Origin: an uncultured delta proteobacterium
GTDB taxonomy: Bacteria; Myxococcota_A; Polyangia; Fen-1088
Length of the DNA: 64,000 nucleotides
Assembly (NCBI GenBank): GCA_963796685.1
Contig: CAWCMR010000025.1
Coordinates: 1,440,001-1,504,000 of the forward strand
Direction: 5' to 3'
Part shown: piece after piece, positions 16,559 through 31,588 of the stretch
Layout: each line of letters opens with the position of its first letter
Position numbering within the stretch: position 1 is the first letter of the stretch
The notes under the pieces: model-generated
Databases searched by the model: none
What the model was told of the DNA's origin: nothing
The model's input: the letters and a program-made list of their open reading frames with translations, nothing else
Program-made: the position numbers and the translations under genes

Positions 16559-17034
16559 GACGGTTCATCTTCGATGCCGAACGCCTGGCGCAGCATCGCC
16601 GCGTCCTGGTGGTCGAGCGGTCGGATGGTGCCCCGCTTCAGGCGATAGAGGGCGCCAGGGGTGGCCACACGGATGCGCACGCCTGCTACCGTCTTCGTCT
16701 CCGCTTCCACGGTCTCGTAGCTGGCGGCCGATCCCAGGCGAGTCAGGATGTCGAAGTAGAGATCACCGCTGGGTGGGTAGTAGCGCACCGCCGGGTACTC
16801 GCCGAGCAGGTCCTCGGCTTTGATGTCGTCGATATTCGGATCGTCGCCATAGACCGCCCGAAAAGCACGGCGCAGGCGTTCGATGTTCTCGTATGTGCCC
16901 CGGATGAAGATGTCGAGGTCCTCCGTGGCACGCACCACGCCGTGCACGCCCATGGCCGCCGCCCCGACGAGAACATATTCCACCATCTCCCGGTCGAAGG
17001 CAGCGAGCGCCCGAAGCATTTCGTCTCGATCCAC
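16555..17034 (-). CDS. DUF6036/AbiEii-like nucleotidyltransferase
   Basis: C-terminal 159 aa of ORF 16555..18399 from GTG 17034: YVLVGAAAMGVHGVVRATEDLDIFI and K..TIRPLDHQD. Confidence 0.8.
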   Translation of the reverse strand: MDRDEMLRALAAFDREMVEYVLVGAAAMGVHGVVRATEDLDIFIRGTYENIERLRRAFRAVYGDDPNIDDIKAEDLLGEYPAVRYYPPSGDLYFDILTRLGSAASYETVEAETKTVAGVRIRVATPGALYRLKRGTIRPLDHQDAAMLRQAFGIEDEPS

Positions 17035-17154
17035 TCCGCAAGCGTACCCCGTCCCGCGCCAATCCCCAAGCCGAAGGCGGACCAGGGCGCGGGCAACGCT
17101 CAGGCAAGGCCGACCGACTGGAAAACGCCGTCGAATAGCGGGAAGCTGACCGCC

Positions 17155-18135
17155 ATGCCTCGCCGTGTATTTCTGCTTTCGTTGCTGTTCGTTCTTCTCG
17201 GTGCCTCGGCCTTCGATCCGGGAACGCGCCCGCGCGAGCGCAACGCCATCCTCATCTCGTGGGATGGGGCCCTGCGCGAGCACGTGCACGGCGATATCGC
17301 GCGCGGCAAGCTCCCCAACCTGGCCAAGCTCGCCCGCATGGGCGCACTCGTGGATATGGATGTCACCGGTCACCAGACCGACACCAAGGCCGGGCACGCG
17401 GAGATGCTCACCGGGTACGGTCCCGCGCTCACGGGCGTGTACTCGGATGGCAAGTTCGACCCGATCCCGCGCGGCTACTCGATCTTCGAGCGGCTGACCC
17501 AAGCCTTCGGCAAGCAGGGCATCACCACCATCATGCTGACCGGCAAGGATCACAACCTCGGCTCGCGCGGTCCCGGCCTGCTCAGCCACGGCGAGCCCTT
17601 CTACCTGGTTCGCCCGGACATCACGGTGTGGGACGGCGACGAGATGCGGCCGGCCTCTGTGGTCGGCGAGAAGGCCGTGCGCTACATCCGCGAGTACGCC
17701 AAGAAGGGGCGATTCTTCCTCTTCATCCACTTCGCCGACATCGATCTGAGCGGCCACGGCCACGGCGAGGCCTCGCAGGCGTACGACAGCGCCATGGTCG
17801 AATGCGATGGTTGGCTGGGCAGGATCATGACCGAGCTCGAAACCCAAGGCATCGACCGCCGCACCTTGCTCTATGTCAGCGCCGATCACGGGTTCGAGGT
17901 CGGAGCCAAGAACCACGCAAACGCGCCCCACATCTTCCTTGCCGCGAACGATCCATCCGTGGCCACGGCTGGCCAGCAGCGCGACATCGCGCCGACCATC
18001 CTGCGCGCCATGGGCGTGGAGCTGAACAAGATCGTTCCAGCACTTCCCGGCAGACCACTCGGAAATAGGGCAGCTAGAGCACCGAATGGGTTGAAACCCG
18101 AGCAATTCCCGGATTCTAACCACAGAGAACACTGA
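17155..18135 (+). CDS. Alkaline phosphatase superfamily (phosphodiesterase/nucleotide pyrophosphatase-like) secreted protein
   Basis: Signal peptide; LISWDG, TKAGHAEMLTG, DIDLSGH, SADHG, DIAPTIL. Confidence 0.85.
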   Translation: MPRRVFLLSLLFVLLGASAFDPGTRPRERNAILISWDGALREHVHGDIARGKLPNLAKLARMGALVDMDVTGHQTDTKAGHAEMLTGYGPALTGVYSDGKFDPIPRGYSIFERLTQAFGKQGITTIMLTGKDHNLGSRGPGLLSHGEPFYLVRPDITVWDGDEMRPASVVGEKAVRYIREYAKKGRFFLFIHFADIDLSGHGHGEASQAYDSAMVECDGWLGRIMTELETQGIDRRTLLYVSADHGFEVGAKNHANAPHIFLAANDPSVATAGQQRDIAPTILRAMGVELNKIVPALPGRPLGNRAARAPNGLKPEQFPDSNHREH

Positions 18136-18166
18136 GACGGATGCTAGGGTGCGCTTCGGCGACCGC

Positions 18167-18523
18167 TTACCAGCAGGACAACCCGACCCCGATGAGGTTG
18201 CGTTCCCCGGGCTTGCAGTAGCCGCGCGTCGCCCCCGGCGTGGGACAGGCGGCGACGTCCTGGCAGACCGCCCCTTGCGGGCAGTCTTCGTCGATGGCGC
18301 AGGAGGCGGTGCAGCCTTGCAGGATGCATCCCTGCTCGGCAGCCACGTTCTCGAAGACACCCAAACCACCGCTGCAGCTGAGATCCGAAACGGCCCCATA
18401 AGCCCCTGCGGTGAGCTGGCTCATGACCTTCGGGTCGCAGCGACCGAGCCAGTCTTTCACCACGAGCGCTGGTGGCACCTCAGCCGCGGCTTGCCTCGCA
18501 ATATAGGCGGCGGCTTCGCTCAC
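18167..18523 (-). pseudogene. Cys-rich C-terminal fragment of a myxobacterial-type secreted protein
   Basis: CTASCAIDEDCPQGAVC motif; no signal peptide or convincing start. Confidence 0.4.
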
Positions 18524-18609
18524 GGCTCTGCTTGGCGCGATTCTTCCTAGGCGAGTCGAGCGCTCTATTTCGGCCTTGCTCGTGGCGTGCTGGGGGGCAT
18601 GCTGGATGG

Positions 18610-19608
<999 letters not shown>

Positions 19609-19639
19609 CGCCATTACGAACCGTCTCCCCCAGCATCCG

Positions 19640-19955
19640 GAAGGCCGGCAGGGTCGTGAACGCGCCGGTCATCTCGATGACCAGCACGATGCCTGTGATC
19701 GGTGCGCGCACGACCCCGGTGAAGAACGCGGCCATGCCGGCGACTGCGAACGCCCGACATGTCACCAGAGGCCGCTGCAGTAACGTGAAACAGCGGCGCA
19801 TCGCCGAGGAACACGCGTGCCACGAGGATCGCGCTGGACGATGCACCCAGCGCCGCCAGGGCGAGCTGGCTCTCGAAGCGACGGTGCAACTCCTCGAGCA
19901 CGAATAGCGCGCCTGCGATAGGCGCATTGAAGGCCACGGCGAGTCCGGTGCCGAC
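19640..19955 (-). pseudogene. ClC H+/Cl- antiporter remnant (two non-adjacent internal pieces)
   Basis: GLAVAFNAPIAGALFVLEE in one frame joined to AVAGMAAFFTGVVRAPITGIVLVIEMTG in another; intervening part and both ends missing. Confidence 0.8.
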
Positions 19956-20087
19956 GTTCTTCTCCCTGGCGACGACGGTCCGGGGCAACATCGTGCTGGC
20001 CGTTGCCAAGCTGTCGATGTCCCCGAGGCCCAAATGCTCTACATCGAGCTCGACAGCTCCCGGCTCCCTTGATCTCGCTGACAGGTA

Positions 20088-21329
20088 CTACTTCTGGCAG
20101 ACGTGGACGTAGTCGATCACCATCTTCTGCGGGAAGACCGTGGTGGAGTCGGGGTTGCCCGGCCAGTCACCGCCAACCGCCAGGTTCAAGATGAAGAAGA
20201 ATCCATGATCGAAGACCCAGGTGTTGCCCTGGATGTCGGCAGGGGTCTTGGTCGAGTAGAGGTTGCCGTCGACGTACCAGCGAATGGCATTGGCTTCCCA
20301 CTCGATTGCGAAAACGTGAAAGTCGTCGGAGAACTTGGCGTCACTCGGGAGGGTGTAAGACGCCGTGGGCCCGGCCGAGCCGGAATAGCCGGGGCCATGC
20401 ATGGTTCCGTGGGCGATCGACGGCTCGCGCCCGAGGTTTTCCATGATGTCGATCTCGCCGGTGTTCGGCCACGAGTTTCCGCCCAGCATCCAGAAAGCCG
20501 GCCACATGCCCTGGCCGTACGGCAGCTTCATGCGCCCCTCGAAGCGTCCATAGGTAAAGGTCTTCTTGCCCTCGGTCTTGAGGCGCGCGGAGGTGTACTG
20601 CCTGCCTTCGCGAGCCTCCTTGCGCGCCTCGATGACCAGGTTGCCGTCGCCGTCCAGCGAGGCGTTGGTCGTGCCGGAGGTGTAGTCTTGAAGCTCGCCG
20701 TTGTACCAGTTGGGGCCAGTGTCATACGTCCACTTGCTGGCGTCAGCGGCCGCGCCAGCGGCGCCCTCGAAGTCGTCGCTCCAAACCAGCTTCCACGTGG
20801 TGTCCGGACACTTGGCGGACGTAACCGCCCCGCCCGTTCCGTTCCCCGTCGCACCGCCCGCTGCCGCTCCACCGGTACTCTGAACACCGCCGGTGCCGCT
20901 CCCACCCCCCGAGCCTTGCCTGCCGCCGCTCGCGACCGAGCCTCCCGACGAGGCCGAGCCTCCCGCACCGCTATCGGCGACGGTGCCCCCAGTTGCTGAC
21001 GAGCCGCCGGCACCAACCTTGCCACCCGCGCCGGCGCTGGTCCCGCCCCTCCCCGTGACGCCACCGGTGGGAAGCGCGCCGCCGGTGCCTCTGTCGACGC
21101 TGGTGCCGCCGGTGGGCAACGCGCCACCGGCGCCGCTGTCGCCGCTGGTGCCGCCCGTGGACAACGCGCCGCCGGCACCGCTGCCGCCGGTTCCTACGAT
21201 CCCGCCGGTTTCTGGTTGCCCACCCGATCCCGAACCTCCCTTCCCGGTCGCGCCGGATCCACCCGACGTGCAAGCCGCGAGTGCAGCGGACGCCAGTACG
21301 AAGAACAGACTGGACACACGTCTTCGCAT
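20088..21329 (-). CDS. GH16 beta-glucanase (laminarinase-like) lipoprotein with Gly/Ser/Thr linker
   Basis: Lipobox ALAAC; WSDDF, YTSARL, GMWPAFW, GEIDIME catalytic motif, LNLAVGG. Confidence 0.92.
   Translation of the reverse strand: MRRRVSSLFFVLASAALAACTSGGSGATGKGGSGSGGQPETGGIVGTGGSGAGGALSTGGTSGDSGAGGALPTGGTSVDRGTGGALPTGGVTGRGGTSAGAGGKVGAGGSSATGGTVADSGAGGSASSGGSVASGGRQGSGGGSGTGGVQSTGGAAAGGATGNGTGGAVTSAKCPDTTWKLVWSDDFEGAAGAAADASKWTYDTGPNWYNGELQDYTSGTTNASLDGDGNLVIEARKEAREGRQYTSARLKTEGKKTFTYGRFEGRMKLPYGQGMWPAFWMLGGNSWPNTGEIDIMENLGREPSIAHGTMHGPGYSGSAGPTASYTLPSDAKFSDDFHVFAIEWEANAIRWYVDGNLYSTKTPADIQGNTWVFDHGFFFILNLAVGGDWPGNPDSTTVFPQKMVIDYVHVCQK
21061..21183 (-). repeat. Degenerate 45-bp tandem repeat (about 2.7 copies) in GH16 linker
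   Basis: Encodes GAGGALSTGGTSGDS / GAGGALPTGGTSVDR / GTGGALPTGG. Confidence 0.7.
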
Positions 21330-21600
21330 GAGGAGCTCCTTGCATCGAGCATACTGGTCTTCCCGGACCGCATCCTGGAAAGTCGAGCCGTGCTCTGCCT
21401 TTTCCCAAGAAAGGCGATGGCGAGGGCAATCGTGACGAGCGTGGTGAACCAAGGACGACGGTGTCGCCGGTTGGGCCTGGCGCCGTGCTGTCGAAGCGCT
21501 GATGTGCATGGCTGGGGCGCTTGAAGGCCGTCACCTACGCCGAATTGGGAAGAATCGGATGCCATCGGCGATCGGCACACTTTCCGCTATCCTTCTGGAC

Positions 21601-22356
21601 ATGCCAGGCAAAAGGAAGCGGAGCATCACGCCCCTGATGGTTGGACATCGTCTGGACGAGCAAGACGCCTTCGACCGCACGACGGAGCACTTCTTGACCG
21701 AAGGCGAAGAGCATGAGGCGCGCGGGTGGGAAGATGTCCTGCCGCTGGATGACGAGCCTGGGATGAGGCCCCGACGTGGATCCGTCGACAAGGTCCCTCG
21801 CCGACGGGGCGCCGTCGTTGCTGTTGTCGCGCTCTGCGTTTGTCTGGTCTTGGCGGCCGCGGCCGGCGGCTTTGCGCTTTTCGCGAAGGGGCGTGTTGGA
21901 GAACCCATGGCGACCATCCGCGCGTGGTTGTCGGTGACGTCTCGCGAATCGACCGCGGTGCGTCCGCCGAATCCAAAATCGCCACAGACACCACGACAGA
22001 CCAACACACCGTCGCTCGGGCCGGCGCTTGCGCCAAGCCCGGCGATGCCACAGGTCCCTGCCGCCGCGCCGCCGGCTAGCGAGGCGGTCGCGATTCCCGC
22101 AAAAGGTCTACGCCCCGAGGACAAGACCGAACATGGGACGACGCCTTTGCCGGATCTCGAGGGCCAGGAGAGACTGAGAAAAGACGCACTCGCCACGCGC
22201 AGACGACGCCATCGCGGCCAGGCGCAAGACGATTACGTCTGGTCTGCGGAGCTGAACGCGTTGGTTCACGCCTCGTCGCTGCCGAGCGTAGCGCAACCGT
22301 CGGCGCAATCGGACGCAGCAACGGGTCGCCATCCTGCTTCCCAGAGCCCGCGTTGA
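21601..22356 (+). CDS. Hypothetical single-TM protein with Pro-rich C-terminal region
   Basis: ATG 21601 in ORF 21502..22356; acidic N-terminus, TM AVVAVVALCVCLVLAAAAGG. Confidence 0.55.
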   Translation: MPGKRKRSITPLMVGHRLDEQDAFDRTTEHFLTEGEEHEARGWEDVLPLDDEPGMRPRRGSVDKVPRRRGAVVAVVALCVCLVLAAAAGGFALFAKGRVGEPMATIRAWLSVTSRESTAVRPPNPKSPQTPRQTNTPSLGPALAPSPAMPQVPAAAPPASEAVAIPAKGLRPEDKTEHGTTPLPDLEGQERLRKDALATRRRRHRGQAQDDYVWSAELNALVHASSLPSVAQPSAQSDAATGRHPASQSPR

Positions 22357-22423
22357 GAACGCGGGCGCCTCGTCGTACACCCGTTCGCTGGCTCAGGATT
22401 TCGCGACCTCATCCAACCTGCAG

Positions 22424-23344
22424 CTACTCGCGGCGAAAGGACGTGGCGAACGCGGGCTTGGTAATCTCGTGACCCACGACCAGCCGACCCGGGCCGGCCC
22501 AAAACACTTGCATCGAAGGATCTGTTGCATCGGGTGGTAGCGGCCAGACGTTGTCACCATGGGGATTGTCGAACTCGACCAACACCACCAGCTTCGGCTG
22601 GGCTCCGCCTTCGATGAGGGCCAGGCTCCTGCCGTCCGAGGACCACGCCGGCGTGCCCTGGATTCTGGTGACGCCGGTCCGCGGGTAAACCTGGGCCCCG
22701 TCGGCGCCGAGCCATTCCCGACCGGGAGCGCCACCCACCCAGGCGACGTGAGCCCCGGTGGGCGAGAAGGCGAAGCTGCGGCCCTCGCAAACCATGGGTG
22801 CGGCGATCGGCGTGAGCGGCTGGATCACATAGACCACGGCGGGGGCAGGCGGCGTCTTCTTCTTGCCGTGCCGTCTCGGCCCGGTCGCGTGCTTGTCGAG
22901 AGCAGGCGTCGGCGGCGTAATCCGGTAGACCAGACGAGATTCGTCAAGAAGGCGTAGATCCTCGACCACGCCGGGGCGTGCGGCGGCGACCTCGGCGCTC
23001 GGCTCGCCCGAGGCACGGAAGACCGTGAGTCGATAGGGGGCGCCGTTTCCCGCCCCCTCCTTGGGCGAGATGGCCACCGCGTAGCTGGTTCGACCTGGGC
23101 TCCACTTGAGCTGAGCGAGCTCGACGCCCAGCCTCGCAGCCACGGCCTCCGGCGATTCCACGACCTTCGTCTCTCGCCTGGGCGGAGGTGCCTTGGGCGG
23201 CCTGGTGGCGGGGAGTGGTGAGCGCAGGTTGTCGTGGGACCGGTTGTCGGGATTGGACGCGCACGCCAGCGTGGCGGTGACGACCGCCGTCACCAACGCG
23301 ATCTCGGCATGGTGCAAGGACGGCCTCCGGCTCTGGTACTTCAT
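22424..23344 (-). CDS. Putative lipoprotein with TolB/PD40-like beta-propeller repeats
   Basis: TLAC lipobox; KWSPG, AFSPTG, PAWSSDG repeats. Confidence 0.7.
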   Translation of the reverse strand: MKYQSRRPSLHHAEIALVTAVVTATLACASNPDNRSHDNLRSPLPATRPPKAPPPRRETKVVESPEAVAARLGVELAQLKWSPGRTSYAVAISPKEGAGNGAPYRLTVFRASGEPSAEVAAARPGVVEDLRLLDESRLVYRITPPTPALDKHATGPRRHGKKKTPPAPAVVYVIQPLTPIAAPMVCEGRSFAFSPTGAHVAWVGGAPGREWLGADGAQVYPRTGVTRIQGTPAWSSDGRSLALIEGGAQPKLVVLVEFDNPHGDNVWPLPPDATDPSMQVFWAGPGRLVVGHEITKPAFATSFRRE

Positions 23345-23409
23345 CGGAAGATGCTCCCGGCGCGAACGCCGAAAGTCAACCTGCGCGCGCGTCGCCGCGC
23401 GAGGGCTGG

Positions 23410-24545
23410 TTACTTGGCGACCGCGTGCACCGGCGGCGGCGTGATGCGATCCGCTCGGTAGACGCCGGTGCTGGGAGCGCACAGCGGATCCTTGCACTCC
23501 GGCAGGGGCGCGCGCAGACTGCCGCCGTTGAGCAAGGCCACATCGCCGGGGCGGGCCGCGCGCATCAGATCGGCAAGCAGGTTGCCGAGAGCATTTTCCT
23601 GATTGCGCCGGTTCGGAAGTGGTCGCAGCACCTCGACGTTCAAGGACTCCGCGCCCTTGCTCTCCACGGCCGCGAAGGCGGCAGCGTTCAGTCGCGCCAA
23701 CTCGTCGCTCGCGTGGACCGGGCTTCCCTCGTAGTCGCCTGGACGGCACGATTCGCCCCGGCCCACCTGACAGAGGTCGTGCGGCTTGTCGATGTGAGAA
23801 GCCACGAGCTTGCCCGACTTGCGCTCGACGGTCAGATCCACGCGGCCGAAAGCGCGGCCGTTGGCGTAGGACTCGATGATGGGCACCCCGGCCACCCGCT
23901 GCGTGATGGCCTGGTGGGTGTGTCCGGCCACGATGGCGTCCACGCTGCCTTTGGGCAACTCCCGCGCAACGGCGAAGATCGCGCTCTTGGCGTCGCAGGA
24001 ATCGAGTCTCGCCGGATCCGAGAAATCGCCGCACGCGCCGCCTTCGTGAACCACGGCGATGACGATCTTGGCGCCTCGGGCGCGCAGGCCGCGCGCCTCG
24101 CGGGCGAGGGTCTTGGCCAGGGGCAGGAATTCCAGCCCTGCCACGTTGGCCGGCAGGGTCGTGCGGGGCGTGGCGAGGGTGACCGCGCCGACGAGCCCGA
24201 TCTTGACACCCGCGGCATCGACGATGGCGGAAGGCTCGACGCCCGGCCAGGCCACCGGCTTGCCCGTCTTCGCGTCGATGACGTTCGCCGCCAGCAAAGG
24301 AAAACGGGCCTCGGCGGCGCGGGCCTTGAGCGCGCCACGGGGATCGTCGCCGGGCTTCACCGGCGCGGGCGCGGGTCCGACCGGCCCGAAGTCGAATTCG
24401 TGGTTGCCGATGGCGGCAGCGGTGTACCCCAGGGCATTGTAGTCGCGCACGACAGGCGCGCCCTCCGCCAGGTTCGATTCGAGGGTGCCCTGAAACATGT
24501 CGCCCGCGTCGAGCAAGGCCACCGCGCCGCCATCGCGTTCGCGCG
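23410..24545 (-). pseudogene. Truncated duplicate of the 5'-nucleotidase gene, fused to a foreign C-terminal tail
   Basis: Near-identical to 27624..28670; lacks signal peptide and SDLHG motif and ends LRAPLP-ECKDPLC. Confidence 0.85.
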
Positions 24546-24924
24546 TCCTGCGGCGCGTGTTCTCAGGGCGCGCGCAATGAGCGACATGCTTTCCCACTGG
24601 CGACCGTGAGCGCACCCCAGCCTGGAGGCACAACCTTCGCCGCGCGTTTTTCGCTCAAACCCGGCCTTGAGGCCGAGCCACCCAATGTGGATAGGGGCGC
24701 GCGAGCGCTTCGTCTCTGCCAACGACAGCAACATCGGCGCCATCAGGCAGCTGTTCCCGCGCGACCGCGCCCACCAAGACCTGCACTTCGATGAAATCTC
24801 CACCAGCCACGCGGCGAACAACGGCGGAGGAGGGGACACACCAACCCCACCCACGCCCGCCACCGACACCACCAAAGTGGAAAGGGGAGATGGGCGGACC
24901 CAGGAGGCATTTCCCGCGCGGGAA

Positions 24925-25137
24925 GGGACCGGGCGTGTCGGGCGTGTGGTGGTGGACCAATTGCTGGCCGCGGGTGTGCCGGTGCGCGCGCTTACGCGCC
25001 GACCGACCGAGGCAGGGCTGCCGCCAGCGGTCGAGGTCGTGTCGGGCGACCTGACCGTGCCCGAATCGCTAGAAGTTGTGCTGGAAGGCGTAGGTGCGGT
25101 GTTCCTGGTCTGGACCGCTCCGACGACGACTGCCGAG
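24925..25137 (+). pseudogene. NmrA-like NAD(P)H-binding oxidoreductase N-terminal fragment
   Basis: GTGRVGRVVVDQLLAAGVPVRALTRRP...VVSGDLTVPESL...GVGAVFLVW. Confidence 0.75.
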
Positions 25138-25157
25138 GGGTGGCGCAGCTCGCGCGC

Positions 25158-25372
25158 CTGCCGGTATGGAGGAAAAATCCCATCTCGGTGACCGATAGGG
25201 GCGCGGTGATCTGGACGCCGGGATGACCGCGCAGGGGAACCGGGCGACGGCGCAACTCGGGGCCGGCGGGCGCCAGGCCGGCGACAGAGGCGGCGGCCAG
25301 TTGGGCGAGCGCGGGTTCGCGCTCGGCGAAGCCGTCTTCGAGTACGGTCAGTTCAGAGCCGGCCTCGATGCC
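25158..25372 (-). mobile_element. IS91-like (Y2) transposase internal fragment
   Basis: Translates IEAGSELTVLEDGFAEREPALAQLAAASVAGLAPAGPELRRRPVPLRGHPGVQITAPLSVTEMGFFLH, resembling myxobacterial IS91-family transposases (recognised from memory). Confidence 0.65.
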
Positions 25373-25384
25373 CCCGCGACCATG

Positions 25385-25514
25385 GCGCGACCACCGTCCC
25401 CGACAACGCCGCGGGCGGGGTCGACTTGCTGTCGACCCCGTCCCCGCACGCCATGAAGGCTCCGGACATCAGCACCACCCAGACGGCAAACACACTTCGG
25501 ACATTCCTGTTCAT
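25385..25514 (-). pseudogene. Lipoprotein N-terminal fragment
   Basis: MNRNVRSVFAVWVVLMSGAFMACGDG signal plus lipobox, cut off at the IS91-like piece. Confidence 0.5.
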
Positions 25515-25709
25515 GAGCGTTGGCCTTTCGTGAATCGAGACGACGAGCGCTTCGTTGGGCTCTCGACTAGGTGGATGCGCTCGCGTCAAAACCATCCGCA
25601 TCTCGCGACGCTGGACGTCAGCGGGCCCGCGATGCCTTCACGCGGTCTTCGCTCCGAACCCTGGCTGGCACCGCCTCGCCAGCCTTGCGAAGATCGGCGA
25701 GAAGGGTCT

Positions 25710-26063
25710 CTACCAATCCGACGCGCCGCTGTCTGCGATTCCCCCTGAGCGTCGGCGCGCTGCCGGCGGTGGGTTGCGGCTCGTCGGCGCCGGCGCCGCT
25801 GATGGGGTCAGCGCCATCAGCGCCAGGGCCCGGCGCAAGGCCGCGCCGAAGCGCTGGAACCCCAGCTCGGCGACCGCGGCCAGCAGCGCGGTCTTGTCGG
25901 CGAAGTGCCGGTAGGGCGCGCGCGGCGAGACGCCGACGGCGCGCGCCACCGCGCGCAGGCTGAGCGCCGCCGGCCCGCGCCGGGCCACCGCTCGCGCCCC
26001 TTCGTCCAGGCAGGCCCGCCGGAGATCGCCATGGTGGTAGGCGCGGCGAGCTCGCTTCGGCAC
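25710..26063 (-). pseudogene. TetR-family regulator, HTH only (C-terminal domain lost)
   Basis: YHHGDLRRACL...LSLRAVARAVGVSPRAPYRHFADKTALLAAVAELGF followed by unrelated sequence. Confidence 0.8.
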
Positions 26064-26070
26064 CCAAAGA

Positions 26071-26085
26071 GTATACACTGTATGC
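26071..26085. promoter_or_regulatory. Imperfect palindrome GTATACA-C-TGTATGC, putative TetR operator
   Basis: Lies between the divergent tetR and SnoaL-like starts. Confidence 0.55.
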
Positions 26086-26117
26086 ACTTCGGAGCTCGAA
26101 TCGAGGGGAGGCCTTCC

Positions 26118-26576
26118 ATGTACCACTTCTTCGTCCGCCGCCGGGTCGCCGCCATCCTCCGGCACATTAACGGGGGCGACTTCGACTTCGTGGTCCGCCA
26201 GTTCGCCCCCGACGCCGAGCACTGGTTCTCGGGGCGGCACGCCCTGGGCGGCCGGCGCACGCGGCCCGAAGAGATCGCGGCCTGGTACCGGCGGCTGGCG
26301 GCGGTCTTTCCCACCATCCGCTTCCAGCCGATCGCGATCATCGTCAGCGGCCCGCCGTGGCGCACCCGGGTCGTGATCGAGTGGACCGACACCTTCCCGG
26401 CCGGGGTCGACCTCGGCGTGAATCAGGGCGTCTTCGTGCTGACGCTGCGCTGGGGGCGCGCCGTGGCGCTGCACGTCTATTGCGACACCGACGAGCTCAA
26501 GCAGAACCTGGGGCGCCTGGCCGCCCGCGGCCTCGCCGACGCCGCCGCCCCGCCCATCGGGATCGCCCCCGGGTGA
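26118..26576 (+). CDS. SnoaL-like / NTF2-family protein
   Basis: F.PDAEHWFSGRHALGG.R, VSGPPW.TRVVIEW.D, NQGV..L.LRWG; RBS-like GGGGAGG. Confidence 0.85.
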   Translation: MYHFFVRRRVAAILRHINGGDFDFVVRQFAPDAEHWFSGRHALGGRRTRPEEIAAWYRRLAAVFPTIRFQPIAIIVSGPPWRTRVVIEWTDTFPAGVDLGVNQGVFVLTLRWGRAVALHVYCDTDELKQNLGRLAARGLADAAAPPIGIAPG

Positions 26577-26700
26577 AGATCGCGCGCCGGTCGATCGCCG
26601 GCGGTCCGGGCGGTCGGCGCGCACTTTAGGGCAGATTCCTCATACCCGCGGGCGAGCCCGGCCCAACCATCAGACGGGTGGGGACGAGCGAGGATCGGCC

Positions 26701-26835
26701 GTGAAGATGCTGCTCTGCCATCCGAGCGGCCTGGTGTACACGGAGATCTTTCTCCGTCTCGAGCCGCTGGGGCTGGAGCTGGTGGCCGAGGCCACGCGCC
26801 GCGCCGGGCACTAGGTGCGGATCCTCGATCTGCAC
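26701..26835 (+). pseudogene. N-terminal fragment of a B12-binding radical SAM methylase (HpnR-like) with in-frame TAG
   Basis: MKMLLCHPSGLVYTEIFLRLEPLGLELVAEATRRAGH*VRILDLH. Confidence 0.7.
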
Positions 26836-26957
26836 GCGTGCAGGGCCTACAAGGCCCGAAATCCCGCCGCGTCAAATGTCCCAGTCTGAGTGTTCCGTCA
26901 ACTCCCCGCGCTCCTCGGCGCCCCGTTCGCCCCCGTTTTCACGGCCAGTCGATCCCG

Positions 26958-27068
26958 AAAGCACGCCGGGGTGAGTTGCGTTGCCACCTGCCGATTGGCT
27001 TCGTCTACGACGGAGGCGGGCACGTCGTAATCGACCCGGACAAGCAAGTGCAAGAAAGTGTGCGACTG
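26958..27068 (+). mobile_element. Large serine recombinase internal fragment
   Basis: KARRGELRCHLPIGFVYDGGGHVVIDPDKQVQESVRL. Confidence 0.7.
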
Positions 27069-27147
27069 CAGCGGGTCCATGTCGACGGCATAGGTGCCAT
27101 CACGATAGGGTTTGCGCAGCTCGATGCGGACCAGGCCAACGGGCAGG
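27069..27147 (-). mobile_element. Second IS91-like transposase fragment
   Basis: LPVGLVRIELRKPYRDGTYAVDMDPL. Confidence 0.65.
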
Positions 27148-27174
27148 CCGCTCGGGAAGTGAGGCAGCCCGCGG

Positions 27175-28833
27175 CTACTGGCCGCACCGGATCGGCACTT
27201 CGCCAGGTAAGGTGAAGCGTGGGTGCGCGGGATCGAACAGCGCACGATCGTCCGGGTCCAGCACGCCGCCACGCCGGCGCAAGCCTTCGGCCATGGCGTC
27301 GCGAACCGGCGGCCCAATCTCGTAGTCGATCTTGGCGCCGGCGAAGAATCCGTCGCCGCCGGTGGCCAGGAAATCCGTCGTGGTGACGGCCAGGACTTCC
27401 TCGTCCCGTACCCTCGAGCCGTCCGCTCGCACGAGCGTCACCTCCACCTCGCCGTGCTCGCATCGAGCAAGCACGTGCAGGCCAGAAAGCGCGACCAGCG
27501 AGCCGGAGTGGCCGAGGCTGCGGGCGAGCAGACGGCGGAACTCGTTGGCCGGCATGTGCAGCGACGCGAAGGCGTTGTCGAAGGGGAAGGTCTCGTAGAG
27601 CCGGCCGTAGGTGAGCGGCCCGGCCGGCAGGGGCGCGCGCAAACTGCCGCCGTTGAGCAAGGCCACATCGCCGGGGCAGGCCGCGCGCATCAGATCGGCA
27701 AGCAGGTTGCCGAGAGCATTTTCCTGATTGCGCCGGTTCGGAAGTGGTCGCAGCACCTCGACGTTCAAGGACTCCGCGCCCTTGCTCTCCACGGCCGCGA
27801 AGGCGGCAGCGTTCAGTCGCGCCAACTCGTCGCTCGCGTGGACCGGGCTTCCCTCGTAGTCGCCTGGACGGCACGATTCGCCCCGGCCCACCTGACAGAG
27901 GTCGTGCGGCTTGTCGATGTGAGAAGACACGAGCTTGCCCGACTTGCGCTCGACGGTCAGATCCACGCGGCCGAAAGCGCGGCCGTTGGCGTAGGACTCG
28001 ATGATGGGCACCCCGGCCACCCGCTGCGCGATGGCCTGGTGGGTGTGTCCGGCCACGATGGCGTCCACGCTGCCTTTGGGTAACTCCCGCGCAACGGCGA
28101 AGATCGCGCTCTTGGCGTCGCAGGAATCGAGTCTCGCCGGATCCGAGAAATCGCCGCACGCGCCGCCTTCGTGAACCACGGCGATGACGATCTTGGCGCC
28201 TCGGGCGCGCAGGCCGCGCGCCTCGCGGGCGAGGGTCTTGGCCAGGGGCAGGAATTCCAGCCCTGCCACGTTGGCCGGCAGGGTCGTGCGGGGCGTGGCG
28301 AGGGTGACCGCGCCGACGAGCCCGATCTTGACACCCGCGGCATCGACGATGGCGGAAGGCTCGACGCCCGGCCAGGCCACCGGCTTGCCCGTCTTCGCGT
28401 CGATGACGTTCGCCGCCAGCAAAGGAAAACGGGCCTCGGCGGCGCGGGCCTTGAGCGCGCCGCGGGGATCGTCGCCGGGCTTCACCGGCGCGGGCGCGGG
28501 TCCGACCGGCCCGAAGTCGAATTCGTGGTTGCCAATGGCGGCGGCGGTGTAACCCAGGGCATTGTAGTCACGCACGACGGGCGCGCCCTCCGCCAGGTTC
28601 GATTCGAGGGTGCCCTGAAACATGTCGCCCGCGTCGAGCAAGACCACCGCGCCGCCGTCGTGTACGCGCGCCTTGCGCAGGTTTTCCAGGTAGCCCCCGA
28701 GCCACGGCAAAGCAGCAATGTGCCCGTGCAAGTCGCTCGTGCCCACCACCGAGATGGTCACCTGCGACGGCGGCGCCGCATGCGCGGACGAGGCCACCGC
28801 CAGCAAAGCGAAGATCGAAACGAGGGCGCGCAT
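27175..28833 (-). CDS. Secreted bifunctional metallophosphatase / 5'-nucleotidase
   Basis: Signal peptide; SDLHG, DAGD, GNHEFD, GHTH, NGGSLR, FPFDN, FLATGGDG. Confidence 0.93.
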   Translation of the reverse strand: MRALVSIFALLAVASSAHAAPPSQVTISVVGTSDLHGHIAALPWLGGYLENLRKARVHDGGAVVLLDAGDMFQGTLESNLAEGAPVVRDYNALGYTAAAIGNHEFDFGPVGPAPAPVKPGDDPRGALKARAAEARFPLLAANVIDAKTGKPVAWPGVEPSAIVDAAGVKIGLVGAVTLATPRTTLPANVAGLEFLPLAKTLAREARGLRARGAKIVIAVVHEGGACGDFSDPARLDSCDAKSAIFAVARELPKGSVDAIVAGHTHQAIAQRVAGVPIIESYANGRAFGRVDLTVERKSGKLVSSHIDKPHDLCQVGRGESCRPGDYEGSPVHASDELARLNAAAFAAVESKGAESLNVEVLRPLPNRRNQENALGNLLADLMRAACPGDVALLNGGSLRAPLPAGPLTYGRLYETFPFDNAFASLHMPANEFRRLLARSLGHSGSLVALSGLHVLARCEHGEVEVTLVRADGSRVRDEEVLAVTTTDFLATGGDGFFAGAKIDYEIGPPVRDAMAEGLRRRGGVLDPDDRALFDPAHPRFTLPGEVPIRCGQ

Positions 28834-28955
28834 GCGAGGCGAAGTATGACGCTTCGGCTACGCTGGATCCTGAATTTCACTCTGTGGTGAACCTCCCCAT
28901 CCCTCGCCGCTGAAATCGGCGAATTCCAGCCGAGTCGTGCTAGGTTTGCCCAACT

Positions 28956-29828
28956 ATGTTCAAAGGAGTCATTACCGCGCTGGTCACGCCCTTGCGCAAC
29001 GATCGCGTGGACGAAGAGGCCTTGCGCCGCTTGGTCGACGAGCAGATCCGCGCCGGCATCGACGGATTGGTTCCCGTGGGAACCACCGGCGAATCCCCCA
29101 CCTTGAGCAACGAGGAGCACATCCGAGTCATCGAGGTGGTGGTGCAAGAGGCGAAGAAGCGCGTGCCCGTGCTCGCCGGTACCGGCGCCAACGCGACCCG
29201 CGAGGCCATCGAGCTGACCGCTGCTGCCAAGGCGGTGGGTGCCGACGGCACCTTGCAGGTCACGCCCTACTACAACAAGCCTACGCAGGACGGGCTCTTT
29301 CGCCACTTCAAGGCCGTGATCGACGCCGTGGGCTTGCCCACGGTGGTGTACAACGTGCCCGGCCGCACGGGCTGCGATCTCCTGCCCGAGACCATCGCCC
29401 GGCTGTGCGAGCTGCCGCTCATGGTCGGCGTGAAAGAGGCCACCGGCAACTTGCAGCGCGCGGCGCAGATCATCGCCCGCGTGGGCGATCGCCTGACCAT
29501 GCTGTCGGGCGACGACGCCACGGCCATGCCCTTTTTCGCCCTCGGGGGCCACGGCTGCATTTCGGTCGTGTCCAACGTGGCGCCGGCCGATTTTTCGGCC
29601 ATGTGGGACGCGGCCGCTGCCGGAAATTGGAACAAGGCGCGCGAGCTGCACTACAAGCTCTTTCCGCTTTCCGAGGGTCTGTTCATCGAGGCCAACCCGA
29701 TCCCGGTCAAGGCCGCGCTGGCCATGATGGGCAAGATCACCGACGAGATCCGGCCTCCGCTCTATCCCATGACGGGCGCCAATCGCGAAAAAGTGCGCAA
29801 GATCCTCGCCGACCTCAAGCTCGTCTAG
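28956..29828 (+). CDS. dapA: 4-hydroxy-tetrahydrodipicolinate synthase
   Basis: GTTGESPTL, PYYNKP, YNVPGRT, GVKEATG, NPIPVK. Confidence 0.97.
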   Translation: MFKGVITALVTPLRNDRVDEEALRRLVDEQIRAGIDGLVPVGTTGESPTLSNEEHIRVIEVVVQEAKKRVPVLAGTGANATREAIELTAAAKAVGADGTLQVTPYYNKPTQDGLFRHFKAVIDAVGLPTVVYNVPGRTGCDLLPETIARLCELPLMVGVKEATGNLQRAAQIIARVGDRLTMLSGDDATAMPFFALGGHGCISVVSNVAPADFSAMWDAAAAGNWNKARELHYKLFPLSEGLFIEANPIPVKAALAMMGKITDEIRPPLYPMTGANREKVRKILADLKLV

Positions 29829-29836
29829 GGTTCACC

Positions 29837-30639
29837 ATGGCCGTACGAATCGCCGTCTTCGGAGCTGGTGGAAAAATGGGGCACGCCATCGTGCGCGCCA
29901 TGGCCGAGGCCGAGGGCGCTGTCCTGGCGGCGGCGGTTGAGCGCTCGGACTATCCCTACCTCGCGGGCGATGCCTCGCAATTGGCGGGCTTGGCCGCCTC
30001 CGGCGTGCGCGTGGTCGACCAGCGACCGGGCAAGGGCGCGGCAGAGGTGTGGATCGATTTTTCGACCCGTCCGCGGCCGTGCCCAACGCCCAGGCCGCCG
30101 CTGCCGCGGGCGCCGCCATCGTGATCGGCACGACCGGTGTTTCCGCCGCCGACAAAGAGACCATCGCCGCCATCGCCAAGACCATCCCGATCGTGCTCAC
30201 CCCCAACATGTCGATGGGCGTGAACGTGATGCTCAGGCTGGTGGCCGATGCCGCGCGCATGCTCGGCCAGGCCTACGACGTCGAGATCGTCGAGACCCAC
30301 CACCGCGCCAAGCGGGATGCTCCCTCGGGCACGGCCCTGCGCCTCGGCGAGGCGGTGGCCGAGGCGACGGGGCGGGAATTGGCCAAGGTGGCGCGCTACC
30401 ATCGCCATGGCGACGTCGGTCCGCGCACCCAGGCGGAAATCGGCATGCAAACCCTGCGCGGTGGCGACGTGTTCGGCGATCACACCGTGTTCTTTTTCGG
30501 CCAGGGCGACCGCCTAGAGATCACCCACCGGGCCTCTTCGCGCGACACCTTCGCCCGGGGCGCGGTTCGCGCGGCTCTGTGGCTGGCGGGAAAACCGGCC
30601 GGACTTTTCGACATGCGCGACGTGCTCGGACTAAAGTAG
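29837..30639 (+). CDS. dapB: 4-hydroxy-tetrahydrodipicolinate reductase (single-base frameshift near 30065)
   Basis: [15 protein letters not shown]...WIDFST in one frame continues as PSAAV...[29 protein letters not shown] in the next. Confidence 0.93.
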
Positions 30640-30655
30640 TCGGCAGCGAGGAACC

Positions 30656-31588
30656 ATGGACCGAAACGGCCCAGCTGCCGCTTCCGCACCCGGCGATGTC
30701 GAGCATCCCCGGTCCGCCATGCTCGACACCTATCCCGCGGAAGAAGTGGTCCGCCTTTGCCTCGACGAGGAAAACGCGGCCATCAAGGCGGCCAAGGCCT
30801 GCGCCGCGGAGATCGCCCAGGCCTCGCGCCTCCTCGCCGAACGCCTGGCCGCCGGCAGCCGGCTGGTCTACGTCGGCGCGGGCACCGCGGGCAGGGTGGC
30901 CGCGTTCGAGGCGGCCGAGTGCGTGCCGCTGTTCGGCCTGCCGCCATCGCTGGTGGTGTCCGTTCTGGCCGGTGGCCCGCACGCCCTGGCGCGCACGGTG
31001 GAAATCGCGCAGGACAACCGGCGCGAGGCCGAGCAGCGCATGCGCAAGGTCGCGGTGGGGCCGGGCGATGTCGTGTGCGCGGTCTCGGACCACGACGTCT
31101 CGCTCTTCTTGCGCGCGGCCATCGAATACGCCCGCTTTCGACGCGCCCACGTCGTGCTGGTGACCTGCACGTCGCCTCCCGTCGCCGACGACGGCGGAGC
31201 CCTGGCCGACGTCTTGATTCGGCTCGACCCCGGTCCCGAGGTCATCGCGGGTGCGACTCGCCTCAAGGCGGCCACGGCTATCAAATTGGCGCTCTCCGCC
31301 TTCTCGAGCGCCGCGTTCGTTCAACTTGGCAAGACCTACGGCGGTCTGATGGTCGACGTGCGTCCCACCACGCCGCGCACCTGGAAGCGCGCCATCTTGC
31401 TCGTGAGCCGTCTGTGCCGCCTGAGCGAGCCCGAGGCCGAAAAGCTGATCAAGAAAGCGGGCGGCAGAGCCAAAGTCGCCATCGTGATTCACCACGCCAG
31501 GGTCAACGCGGCGCGTGCAAAAGAGCTTCTGGTGCAGCACCGTGGCTCTTTGCGCGCTATCGTGGGCGATATCGATCTGACCGGCTAG
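30656..31588 (+). CDS. MurQ-like SIS-fold protein with degenerate active site
   Basis: YVGAGTAGR..AAEC, GPEVIAGATRLKAATA.K, GKTYGGLMVDV. Confidence 0.85.
   Translation: MDRNGPAAASAPGDVEHPRSAMLDTYPAEEVVRLCLDEENAAIKAAKACAAEIAQASRLLAERLAAGSRLVYVGAGTAGRVAAFEAAECVPLFGLPPSLVVSVLAGGPHALARTVEIAQDNRREAEQRMRKVAVGPGDVVCAVSDHDVSLFLRAAIEYARFRRAHVVLVTCTSPPVADDGGALADVLIRLDPGPEVIAGATRLKAATAIKLALSAFSSAAFVQLGKTYGGLMVDVRPTTPRTWKRAILLVSRLCRLSEPEAEKLIKKAGGRAKVAIVIHHARVNAARAKELLVQHRGSLRAIVGDIDLTG

What the first reader, a model, noticed from the sequence alone, without database searches (positions are those of the whole stretch)
24546..27174. Dense mosaic of short unrelated gene fragments interleaved with IS91-like transposase pieces
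Seen, within about 2.6 kb: an unassigned coding-like piece (~24690-24820), NmrA N-terminus (+), IS91-like piece (-), lipoprotein N-terminus (-), another unassigned piece (~25620-25745), TetR HTH (-) with an intact SnoaL partner, HpnR-like N-terminus (+), serine recombinase piece (+) and a second IS91-like piece (-). Most pieces are about 80-250 bp, barely decayed internally, and joined abruptly in mixed orientation. The two IS91-like pieces lie in permuted order relative to an intact gene. This does not look like ordinary pseudogene erosion. Established: IS91/ISCR/Helitron rolling-circle elements mobilise flanking DNA. Inference: a fragment-capture hotspot (rolling-circle capture, microhomology-mediated patching, or uptake of foreign DNA), i.e. 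a repeat-less archive of foreign sequence.
Basis: partly seen in the sequence, partly recalled or inferred. Interest (0 to 1): 0.7.

Follow-up and report, generated by a model that had tools for sequence, protein, structure and literature searches.

The report
Gene-fragment patchwork at an insertion hotspot
A 2.6-kb stretch of a soil bacterium's chromosome really is a patchwork of about a dozen unrelated gene pieces, and it is best read as non-functional debris at a spot between two conserved genes where foreign and duplicated DNA keeps being inserted and cut down.

Summary
Between 24553 and 27174, 72% of the bases can be assigned to named pieces: NmrA residues 10-79, a TetR N-terminus with an intact SnoaL gene, an HpnR N-terminus, a serine-recombinase piece, two IS91-type pieces in permuted order, and pieces of a toxin-antitoxin/defence island.

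The patchwork reaches further left than reported. There it holds two arylsulfotransferase scraps and a 1054-bp copy of the neighbouring 5'-nucleotidase gene.

All of this is the right part of a ~9.1-kb lineage-specific insert between two convergent conserved genes. In one relative these genes abut directly. Three other relatives carry different DNA at the site.

Short-read contigs of one soil run span four junctions exactly.

My best reading is stepwise accumulation followed by short-homology deletion. Three piece sets are colinear remnants of larger units. An Ku/LigD end-joining locus is present.

Rolling-circle capture is not shown. The region has no IS end and the mosaic is single-copy. However, the same genome holds an active IS91-family element with variable upstream ends.

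This scan has noted dead IS91 fragments at island edges in other genomes before.

Interest is modest.

The parts
17109..18073 (+). Conserved left flank: 3' part of an alkaline-phosphatase-superfamily gene ('gene X') with its tail, copy L.
   Evidence: Pfam Phosphodiest/Sulfatase. 83% identical to G010, where it abuts the nucleotidase gene.
18074..18137 (.). 64-bp dispersed repeat that forms the left end of the lineage-specific insert.
   Evidence: 28 further blastn matches in G000, about 13 of them near full length at 87-94%. A dozen or more copies in G002.
18074..27136 (.). The ~9.1-kb lineage-specific insert between gene X and the nucleotidase gene. The finding is its right part.
   Evidence: In G010 the two flanks are contiguous (L011 11656-12611 and 12596-13999).
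19614..20033 (-). Chloride-channel (CLC) gene fragment, a further fragment outside the finding.
   Evidence: Pfam Voltage_CLC, profile positions 95-154 of 346 only.
23408..23475 (-). Arylsulfotransferase gene 3' end with its stop codon (piece b).
   Evidence: 65/68 identical to C15:308242-308309. That gene is Pfam Arylsulfotrans.
23478..23500 (-). Arylsulfotransferase piece a, from about 740 bp upstream in the same gene.
   Evidence: 22/23 identical, colinear with piece b.
23499..24552 (-). Copy F of the interior of the neighbouring 5'-nucleotidase gene. It lacks both gene ends.
   Evidence: 1037/1054 identical to 27624-28677 with no indels.
24553..24603 (.). Unassigned 51 bp (u1) with a 9-bp G+C-rich hairpin.
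   Evidence: No significant match. Fold.
24604..24676 (+). Piece of a small ORF that sits upstream of a PIN-domain gene, i.e. in the antitoxin position.
   Evidence: 86% identical to C11:157156-157227. The PIN neighbour is shown. The small ORF itself has no Pfam match.
24670..24927 (+). 3' end of an unnamed island ORF (to 24869) plus one palindrome-bearing repeat unit (24877-24927).
   Evidence: 83-84% identical to C11:160571-160765 and 160933-160981, colinear. The unit forms a 42-bp-period array on C11.
24928..25137 (+). NmrA/NAD(P)H-binding protein, residues 10-79.
   Evidence: 62/70 identical to a 291-aa protein.
25152..25378 (-). IS91-family (Y2) transposase piece Y, residues ~137-208.
   Evidence: 77-85% DNA identity to intact copies in G004 and G001.
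25379..25801 (.). Unassigned stretch.
   Evidence: No homolog. Weak codon-phase signal.
25802..26054 (-). TetR-family regulator, N-terminal ~84 residues (the DNA-binding domain only).
   Evidence: Pfam TetR_N. 66% identical over 83 aa to an intact 247-aa gene in a same-family genome.
26121..26576 (+). Intact SnoaL-like gene, the divergent partner of the TetR gene.
   Evidence: Pfam SnoaL_2. 75% identical over 150 aa to the 156-aa homolog.
26577..26703 (.). Unassigned 127 bp (u3).
   Evidence: No significant match.
26704..26841 (+). HpnR-type B12 radical-SAM methylase, first ~46 residues, with one in-frame TAG.
   Evidence: No match over the family cut-off elsewhere in G000.
26842..26942 (.). 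Unassigned ~100 bp (u4).
   Evidence: No significant match.
26943..27069 (+). Large serine recombinase piece, residues ~157-200.
   Evidence: 109/112 identical to G010:C17. 83% identical to the intact 686-aa gene on C9.
27070..27152 (-). IS91-family transposase piece X, residues ~239-266.
   Evidence: 79-89% DNA identity to intact copies.
27137..27165 (+). Copy R of the gene X tail, with the ancestral '...GRPLGK stop'. This is the right edge of the insert.
27175..28833 (-). Intact 5'-nucleotidase gene, the conserved right flank and the source of copy F.

Best explanation
The mosaic is non-functional debris. It lies at a hypervariable insertion site between two convergent conserved genes: an alkaline-phosphatase-family gene and a 5'-nucleotidase gene.

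Shown:
- The site is empty in one relative and filled with different DNA in three others.
- Here it holds ~9.1 kb of mixed origin.

Inferred history:
1. Larger units arrived one after another. These were an IS91-family element, a serine-recombinase element, a piece of a toxin-antitoxin/defence island, a TetR-SnoaL pair, other foreign genes, and copies of the genome's own arylsulfotransferase and nucleotidase genes.
2. Many deletions between short or absent homologies then cut them down.
3. At least one local duplication or rearrangement produced the permuted IS91 pieces and the displaced nucleotidase copy.

The gap between two convergent gene ends tolerates such scars because no promoter or coding sequence is harmed.
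For: Hotspot:
- In G010 gene X and the nucleotidase gene are contiguous.
- G001 has 7.5 kb of other, intact genes there.
- G002 has 2.1 kb plus a relic made of 66 bp of the X tail and 111 bp of the nucleotidase 3' end.
- G004 lacks gene X.
- The right junctions of the G000 and G002 inserts lie within about 3 nt of each other.

Colinear remnants of larger units (3 sets):
- Arylsulfotransferase pieces a and b, with 740 bp missing between them.
- Antitoxin-position ORF, island ORF 3' end and repeat unit, in the order and orientation of the C11 and G002:C1 islands, with 3.3 kb missing.
- TetR N-terminus plus SnoaL, as in the intact pair of G018.

Junction overlaps: 2 bp (a|F), up to 7 bp (antitoxin|island ORF), about 6 bp (X|tail R), 0 bp (recombinase|X).

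Different ages:
- F differs from its source at 17/1054 positions. About 10 of these changes are on F's side and 6 on the intact gene's side.
- The arylsulfotransferase scraps differ at 4/91 positions.

The DNA is real: contigs of run X1 with 0-1 differences span 23311-23475, 24620-24770 and 26884-27122.

IS91-type relics are common in this genome, with more than 15 partial hits.
Against: - The two IS91 pieces lie only ~73-90 bp apart in an intact gene yet are permuted and 1.7 kb apart here. Deletion alone cannot do this, and the closeness is unexplained.
- The recombinase|X junction is blunt. The two pieces face opposite ways, whereas the recombinase and the IS91-type gene share a strand in the two elements seen. 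The window's IS91 pieces belong to a different subfamily, so this comparison is weak.
- For the NmrA, HpnR and signal-peptide-like pieces and for u1-u4, no larger parent unit was found, so their arrival as larger units is assumed.
- The pieces are little decayed. F has no indel in 1054 bp, and NmrA is 89% identical to a homolog with no frameshift.
- Two consecutive junctions (F|a and a|b) keep the reading frame.
- Only 4 of ~17 junctions are covered by outside reads, and that run may be the sample of origin.
Confidence: 0.5

Rival explanations
1. End-joining 'filler' capture. The site breaks repeatedly, and Ku/LigD-type repair ligates ready-made short DNA pieces into the break. The pieces come from nearby genes, from transposase genes and from incoming foreign DNA. 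On this reading most pieces were never part of larger inserts here.
For: - A Ku gene, a LigD ligase domain (over its cut-off) and a LigD polymerase domain (under its cut-off and split over two frames) sit together at C8:607-612 kb.
- There is a blunt junction between oppositely oriented recombinase and IS91 pieces, and a 23-bp piece.
- Copy F comes from only 3 kb away.
- In Streptomyces ambofaciens, NHEJ repair of induced breaks inserted 30-83 bp to 18.8 kb of own-genome DNA. Sources included regions near the break and the 5' end of a transposase gene (PMC5869714, passages read).
Against: - Three piece sets are colinear, same-orientation parts of one parent. Independent captures would rarely give that.
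- No donor at ~100% identity exists in this 88.6%-complete genome. The best are 98.4% and 96%.
- The LigD polymerase match is split over two frames.
- No break-prone feature was shown at the site.
Confidence: 0.22
2. IS91/ISCR-type rolling-circle capture. One-ended transposition of an IS91-family element repeatedly carried along short stretches of flanking DNA. This built a Helitron-like fragment array that has since lost its transposase and ends.
For: - Two pieces of one IS91-type gene bracket 1.7 kb of the mosaic in the same orientation and permuted. That is the order expected across a circle junction or a tandem copy.
- The same genome has 12 copies (99.5-99.8% identical) of another IS91-family element on contig C9. 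They share one exact downstream end, and the 11 copies compared with the reference copy share its upstream sequence to 11 different extents.
- The DNA carried upstream of these copies includes gene fragments: Aminotran_5 profile positions 198-285 of 371, and NifU_N positions 36-126 of 127.
- G004 copies of the type found in the window also have one fixed and one variable end.
- Failure of termination in 1-14% of events and circular intermediates are documented for IS91 and IS1294 (PMC13181058, introduction passages read).
Against: - No fixed (ori) end or upstream end of either element type is in 17000-29000. Only chance-level matches were found, E >= 0.2 and >= 0.013 for 15-nt words.
- The mosaic is single-copy.
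- The IS91 pieces are internal scraps of 83 and 227 bp.
- The mosaic pieces are not shared with any IS91-bearing locus examined: 8 loci.
- The C9 element's upstream extensions are nested cuts of one continuous flank, not serial captures.
- The active C9 element is only 44% identical in protein to the type in the window.
Confidence: 0.12
3. A single replicative template-switching event (MMBIR or fork-stalling type) copied short stretches from many templates in one go.
For: Short microhomologies at some junctions; two pieces from one gene 740 bp apart; a nearby gene used as template.
Against: - Templates should remain in the genome at near-identity. Most are absent, and those present differ by 1.6-17%.
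- Divergences differ between pieces, which argues for different ages.
Confidence: 0.08
4. Assembly artefact: a chimeric join in a metagenome-assembled genome.
For: The genome is a 26-contig assembly rated 88.6% complete and 6.5% contaminated. About 13 of 17 junctions have no outside read support.
Against: - Contigs of 151-239 bp from a public run match across four junctions with 0-1 differences.
- The contig is 2.1 Mb, and the assembly resolves 12 near-identical IS copies.
- The flanks are syntenic with relatives on both sides.
Confidence: 0.04

Closest known systems
Variable insertion hotspots and decayed genomic islands between conserved core genes, carrying pseudogene and IS remnants
   Same: The flanks are conserved while the content differs in every relative examined. 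The content mixes mobile-element relics, accessory genes and gene fragments.
   Different: - The density of short pieces is unusually high: about a dozen in 2.6 kb, many of 70-260 bp.
- No intact integrase or tRNA target is present.
- Parts of both flanking genes are duplicated around the inserts.
IS91/ISCR one-ended rolling-circle transposition (IS91, IS801, IS1294; ISCR1-linked complex class 1 integrons with a duplicated 3'-CS)
   Same: - IS91-family transposase relics lie at and inside the insert.
- A host segment is duplicated on both sides of inserted DNA.
- Active relatives with one fixed and one variable end exist in the same genome.
   Different: - No ori or ter end is found here, and there is no intact transposase.
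- The pieces are far shorter than typical ISCR cargo.
- The duplicated host segment (F) does not sit in the position that a simple single-crossover re-integration predicts. That is my inference from the layout.
NHEJ-associated DNA insertion at double-strand breaks in Streptomyces ambofaciens (Hoff et al. 2018, PMC5869714)
   Same: - Both organisms are high-G+C soil bacteria with Ku and LigD.
- Insertions of tens of bp to kb are taken from nearby DNA and from a transposase gene.
- Junctions have little or no homology.
   Different: The Streptomyces events are single insertions at induced breaks, seen in the laboratory. Here there is a multi-piece natural locus whose breaks are only inferred.
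Helitron gene-fragment capture in eukaryotes (for example Helraiser, PMC4778049; abstract seen in the search listing only)
   Same: A mosaic of short pieces of unrelated genes in mixed orientation, associated with a rolling-circle transposase family.
   Different: Helitron mosaics lie inside elements with defined ends and occur in many copies. This one has no ends and is single-copy.

Membership tests
IS91/ISCR capture array | Y2 (HUH) transposase gene or its relic | tested here: met
   Two relic pieces match Pfam Y2_Tnp-bearing genes of relatives. No intact gene is in the region.
IS91/ISCR capture array | A fixed ori end bordering the captured DNA | tested here: not met
   The ends of the G004-type and C9-type elements give only chance-level matches in 17000-29000 and in u1-u4.
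IS91/ISCR capture array | The unit (IS plus cargo) is found in more than one copy or place | tested here: not met
   blastn of 22000-29500 against the whole genome gives no second copy of any block except F and short island, recombinase and arylsulfotransferase pieces. No match in 30 relatives beyond single pieces.
IS91/ISCR capture array | Tetranucleotide target (CTTG/GTTC type) next to the ori end | not testable with these tools
   There is no ori end to anchor the test. The junction sequences listed show no shared motif.
End-joining (NHEJ) filler insertion | Ku and LigD encoded by the organism | tested here: met
   Ku 182.7 bits and LigD ligase domain 344 bits, both over their cut-offs. The polymerase domain is under its cut-off and split over two frames.
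End-joining (NHEJ) filler insertion | Junctions with 0 to a few bp of homology | tested here: met
   0, 2, ~6 and up to 7 bp at the four junctions where both parents are known.
End-joining (NHEJ) filler insertion | Inserted pieces are exact copies of donors that persist elsewhere | tested here: inconclusive
   Donors exist for F (98.4%) and the arylsulfotransferase scraps (96%). None was found for the NmrA, HpnR, SnoaL or IS91 pieces.
Genomic island integrated by a site-specific recombinase | Intact integrase or recombinase at an island edge | tested here: not met
   Only a ~42-residue piece of a large serine recombinase is present.
Genomic island integrated by a site-specific recombinase | Direct repeats (attL/attR) at both edges | tested here: inconclusive
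   The gene X tail occurs at both edges, about 21 of 27 positions alike. G002 has a 111-nt repeat, 91% alike. No recombinase is linked to either.
CRISPR-like or other repeat-spaced archive | Regularly spaced repeats between acquired pieces | tested here: not met
   The repeat finder on 20000-31000 shows only the nucleotidase duplication and low-complexity families. Rfam gives 0 matches in 17500-29000.

The most novel reading that the evidence does not exclude
This genus may have a recurrent way of inserting DNA that copies tens to about a thousand bases of the target onto both sides of the insert.

Cases seen:
- Here: the gene X tail (~27 bp) and the 1054-bp nucleotidase copy.
- At the same site in G002: a repeat of at least 111 bp.
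- Around a 1960-bp deaminase cassette in the G002 defence island: 181 bp.

The mechanism could be circles made by IS91-type one-ended transposition and re-integrated through carried homology. It could also be end joining with fill-in. Repeated rounds at one fragile site would then build the fragment mosaic. That would make the locus a natural record of how end-joining or rolling-circle intermediates bring foreign DNA into a chromosome.
Probability: 0.2. Interest if true: 0.6.

Novelty: new member of a known kind. Interest (0 to 1): 0.35.

Why it matters
Bacterial genomes are usually thought to purge junk quickly. A 3.8-kb run of about 15 breakpoints has nevertheless persisted while its internal duplicate diverged by 1.6%. 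This gives a readable record of illegitimate recombination in a large soil-bacterial genome.

If same-species genomes were available, the locus could show what share of inserted DNA comes from deletion of larger inserts, from end-joining capture, and from IS91-type co-mobilisation.

As it stands, it is an unusually dense example of a known kind of scar. It is not a new system.

Tried and rejected
- tblastx of the region against the genome was swamped by high-G+C noise and was not used.
- A metagenome scan with a degenerate 37-mer from the conserved nucleotidase gene found nothing, so no population view of the site was obtained.
- The search for related loci with the SnoaL protein gave only 4 loci. 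None held other mosaic pieces in its flanks. The idea that the NmrA, HpnR and TetR-SnoaL pieces are remnants of one gene cluster therefore found no support.
- The signal-peptide-like ORF had no homolog among longer proteins.
- The plasmid collection gave only generic NmrA and TetR matches, 10 records.
- u1-u4 were tested as miniature IS ends or dispersed repeats. Only chance-level matches were found.
- A genome-wide screen for short low-copy duplicates found 125 pairs, 18 with one member inside a long ORF and the other not. Other 3-kb bins hold 3-4 such pieces. My ORF criteria were crude (84 pairs unclassified), so I draw only one conclusion: the locus is among the denser ones, not unique.
- Runs X2 and X3 held only short, unlike matches. 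This says nothing about absence.
- The codon positions of F's own changes do not depart from chance (2/2/6 over positions 1/2/3; my chi-square gives p ~0.2). There is thus no sign of selection on F.
- Rfam found no RNA family, and there are no tRNA genes in the window.
Full report
**Setting.** The window is G000:C25:1440001-1504000 of a 7.3-Mb, 26-contig, ~68% G+C assembly rated 88.6% complete and 6.5% contaminated. A same-family record is titled 'MAG: Proteobacteria bacterium'. From recall only, the gene content looks like Myxococcota.

- Profile searches of stop-to-stop frames confirm four pieces. These are an NAD_binding_10/NmrA N-terminal piece (E 3.5e-12), TetR_N (E 8.5e-11), SnoaL_2 over a whole 150-aa gene (E 5.2e-11) and the first 36 residues of HpnR (E 1e-12).
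- A whole-genome family search extends the HpnR match to 26841, with one in-frame TAG. It finds no match over the family cut-off elsewhere in G000.
- The NmrA piece aligns to residues 10-79 of ~291-aa proteins, 62/70 identical to the best hit. Its coordinates are 24928-25137, and it lacks the start codon.
- The TetR remnant keeps ~84 residues. An intact 247-aa TetR with a 156-aa SnoaL partner stands in a same-family genome, 74% identical in DNA over 25844-26560.
- The IS91-like pieces and the recombinase piece were too short for Pfam but match intact genes of relatives.
  - 25152-25378 and 27070-27156 match a multi-copy Y2_Tnp element of G004 and G001 at 77-89%.
  - 26958-27069 is 109/112 identical to a large serine recombinase gene in G010 and 83% identical to the intact 686-aa gene on G000 contig C9.
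- In the intact IS the order along the gene is Y, ~73 bp, X. In the window, along the same direction, X comes first and Y lies 1.7 kb later. The permutation is therefore real.
- The first 'unassigned piece' is the 3' end of an unnamed ORF of an island on contig C11. That island also holds a PIN-domain gene, a deaminase/HATPase_c_4 gene and an Eco57I-type methylase.
- Just left of it, 24604-24676 is a piece of the small ORF upstream of that PIN gene.
- The 'lipoprotein N-terminus' remains a pattern only, with no homolog.
- 25620-25745 has only a weak codon-phase signal.
- In all, about 72% of 24553-27174 is assigned.

- The finding starts exactly where a 1054-bp direct duplication ends. 23499-24552 equals 27624-28677, the interior of the intact 5'-nucleotidase gene at 27175-28833, with 17 differences and no indel.
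- Against three outgroups, about 10 of the differences arose on the copy and 6 on the intact gene. The copy therefore arose in this lineage and is not brand new. G000 and G002 differ by ~8% over the same stretch.
- Left of the copy lie two scraps of the genome's own arylsulfotransferase gene on contig C15. One is 23 bp (22/23 identical). The other is its 3'-terminal 68 bp with the stop codon (65/68 identical). They are colinear, with 740 bp missing between them.
- The nucleotidase copy and both scraps happen to stay in one frame.

**The locus is a hotspot.** In G010 the alkaline-phosphatase-family gene (window 17109-18062) and the nucleotidase 3' end (from 27140) are contiguous, stop codon to stop codon, about 13 nt apart. 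Window ~18074-27136 is therefore a 9.1-kb insert specific to this lineage. The other relatives differ at the same site:
- G001 has 7.5 kb of other, apparently intact genes.
- G004 lacks gene X.
- G002, the closest relative, has a 2.1-kb insert with one membrane-protein gene. Beyond it lies a relic of 66 bp of the X tail plus 111 bp of the nucleotidase 3' end, 91% identical to its intact copy.
- The right junctions of the G000 and G002 inserts fall within about 3 nt of each other.

In G000 the X tail is present at both edges, about 21 of 27 positions alike, and the insert's left end starts with a 64-bp dispersed repeat. The rest of the insert is also mixed:
- an intact luciferase-like monooxygenase gene;
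- a chloride-channel fragment (60 of 346 profile positions);
- a GH16 gene that is 91% identical to G001 but only 71% identical to G002 and G004;
- two genes whose homologs lie on other contigs in G010.

**Is it real DNA?** One public soil-metagenome run (X1, word share 0.10, depth ~2) holds contigs of 151-239 bp with 0-1 differences. They cover 23311-23475, 24620-24770, 26884-27122 and 27405-27635. The first three bridge four junctions: flank|arylsulfotransferase b, antitoxin-ORF|island ORF, u4|recombinase and recombinase|X. The run may be the sample of origin, so it is support from another read type rather than from an independent sample. About 13 junctions remain unbridged.

**How was the mosaic made? 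Evidence for erosion of larger units.** Three piece sets are colinear, same-orientation remnants of known larger units:
- arylsulfotransferase pieces a and b;
- antitoxin-position ORF, island ORF end and repeat unit, with 3.3 kb missing relative to C11 and to G002:C1;
- the TetR N-terminus with SnoaL.

Overlaps at the four junctions with known parents are 2, up to 7, ~6 and 0 bp. Divergence from the nearest copy differs between pieces (1.6%, 4.4%, 3%, 14-17%), which fits several events over time.

**Evidence that deletion is not the whole story.**
- The IS91 pieces are permuted although they lie only 73-90 bp apart in the gene.
- The nucleotidase copy is likewise displaced relative to the gene's 3' end.
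- The recombinase and X pieces meet bluntly in opposite orientation.

A local tandem duplication with later trimming, a circular intermediate opened inside the IS, or ligation of loose pieces would each give this layout. I could not tell them apart.

**The rolling-circle idea.** It has real background in this genome.
- Contig C9 carries 12 copies (99.5-99.8% identical) of an IS91-family element with Y2_Tnp and Zn_Tnp_IS91 domains.
- All end at one exact downstream base. The 11 copies compared with the reference copy share its upstream sequence from 11 different points, up to 3.8 kb beyond the shortest.
- The carried upstream DNA holds gene fragments: Aminotran_5 positions 198-285 of 371 abutting NifU_N positions 36-126 of 127.
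- The G004 copies of the type found in the window behave alike, often cut inside their own transposase gene.
- This matches published one-ended transposition of IS91 and IS1294, where termination fails in 1-14% of events, circles form and there is no target duplication (PMC13181058, introduction passages read).

But the evidence at the locus itself is against it:
- Neither element's ends occur in 17000-29000 or in the unassigned spacers.
- The mosaic is single-copy.
- None of 8 IS91- or hotspot-bearing loci shares other mosaic pieces.
- The C9 extensions are nested cuts of one flank, not serial captures.

**The end-joining idea.** The genome encodes Ku and a LigD ligase domain over their cut-offs. 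It also has a LigD polymerase match under its cut-off, split over two frames, in one locus. In Streptomyces ambofaciens, NHEJ repair of induced breaks inserted 30-83 bp and up to 18.8 kb of own-genome DNA. This included DNA from near the break and the 5' end of a transposase gene (PMC5869714, passages read). That resembles the nucleotidase, arylsulfotransferase and IS91 pieces. The colinear sets and the lack of exact donors argue against it as the main source.

**Donors.**
- For the NmrA piece, the best match among 60 same-family genomes is 60% identical. In the large protein collection many ~291-aa proteins reach 80-89%.
- HpnR-like genes at 72-83% identity occur in 7 of 60 family genomes, and in 0 of 7 genomes sampled from the genus.
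- tblastn of 13 peptides against the own genome found partners only for the island ORF, the TetR piece (46%), the recombinase piece and, weakly, the NmrA piece.

Most pieces are therefore foreign to this genome as assembled.

**Verdict.** Earlier notes of this scan describe dead IS91 fragments at island edges, inserts flanked by duplicated target, and IS91-like families with a fixed ori end in other genomes. I used them as leads only.

Noticed in passing
G000 contig C9, 3.7-131 kb (for example L045:3765-9291; L018): Twelve copies (99.5-99.8% identical) of an IS91-family element (Y2_Tnp + Zn_Tnp_IS91). All share one exact downstream end, and the 11 copies compared with the reference copy share its upstream sequence to 11 different extents. 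This is the signature of active one-ended rolling-circle transposition. The carried upstream DNA includes SufS-like and NifU-like gene fragments and a whole DUF59/FeS_assembly_P gene.
   Followed up: partly
G000:C9:66357-69702 (L018:4357-7702): One IS91-family copy is interrupted near the 3' end of its transposase gene by a 3.35-kb module of an HTH gene plus a 686-aa large serine recombinase. The same three-gene neighbourhood (IS91-type gene, HTH, recombinase) recurs in G010:C17.
   Followed up: partly
G000:C11:157784-159743 versus G002:C1 (L025:2858-4817): A 1960-bp cassette encoding a deaminase/HATPase_c_4 protein is 99.4% identical between two species whose surrounding island DNA is 82-97% identical. 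It sits at different positions in the island. In G002 it is flanked by a 181-bp duplication of its target.
   Followed up: no
window 18074-18137: A 64-bp dispersed repeat. It has 28 further blastn matches in G000, about 13 of them near full length at 87-94%, and many copies in G002, G006 and G001. It forms the left end of the 9.1-kb insert and extends the reading frame of the upstream gene. It matches no Rfam family.
   Followed up: partly
window 20088-21509: A GH16 lipoprotein gene is 91% identical in DNA to G001:C7 but only 71% identical to G002 and G004. This is far above the usual G000-G001 identity (77-84%) and suggests recent exchange.
   Followed up: no
window 19614-20033: A chloride-channel gene fragment (Voltage_CLC profile positions 95-154 of 346). 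This is another gene scrap inside the same insert, outside the finding's coordinates.
   Followed up: no
G000:C11:160873-161300 (L042:5912-6061) and window 24877-24927: A short array (period 42 bp, 3.6 copies) of a unit containing a perfect 14-nt palindrome lies downstream of the unnamed island ORF. One unit lies in the window.
   Followed up: no
G000:C8:608292-609022: The LigD polymerase-domain match is split over two reading frames next to an intact LigD ligase domain and a Ku gene. This is either a frameshift or an assembly error.
   Followed up: no
G000:C13:588886-590230: An array of eight ~65-bp units at ~160-230-bp spacing, similar to a ~72-bp multi-copy sequence found next to the C11/G002 island. 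It may be a tRNA-gene array but was not checked.
   Followed up: no
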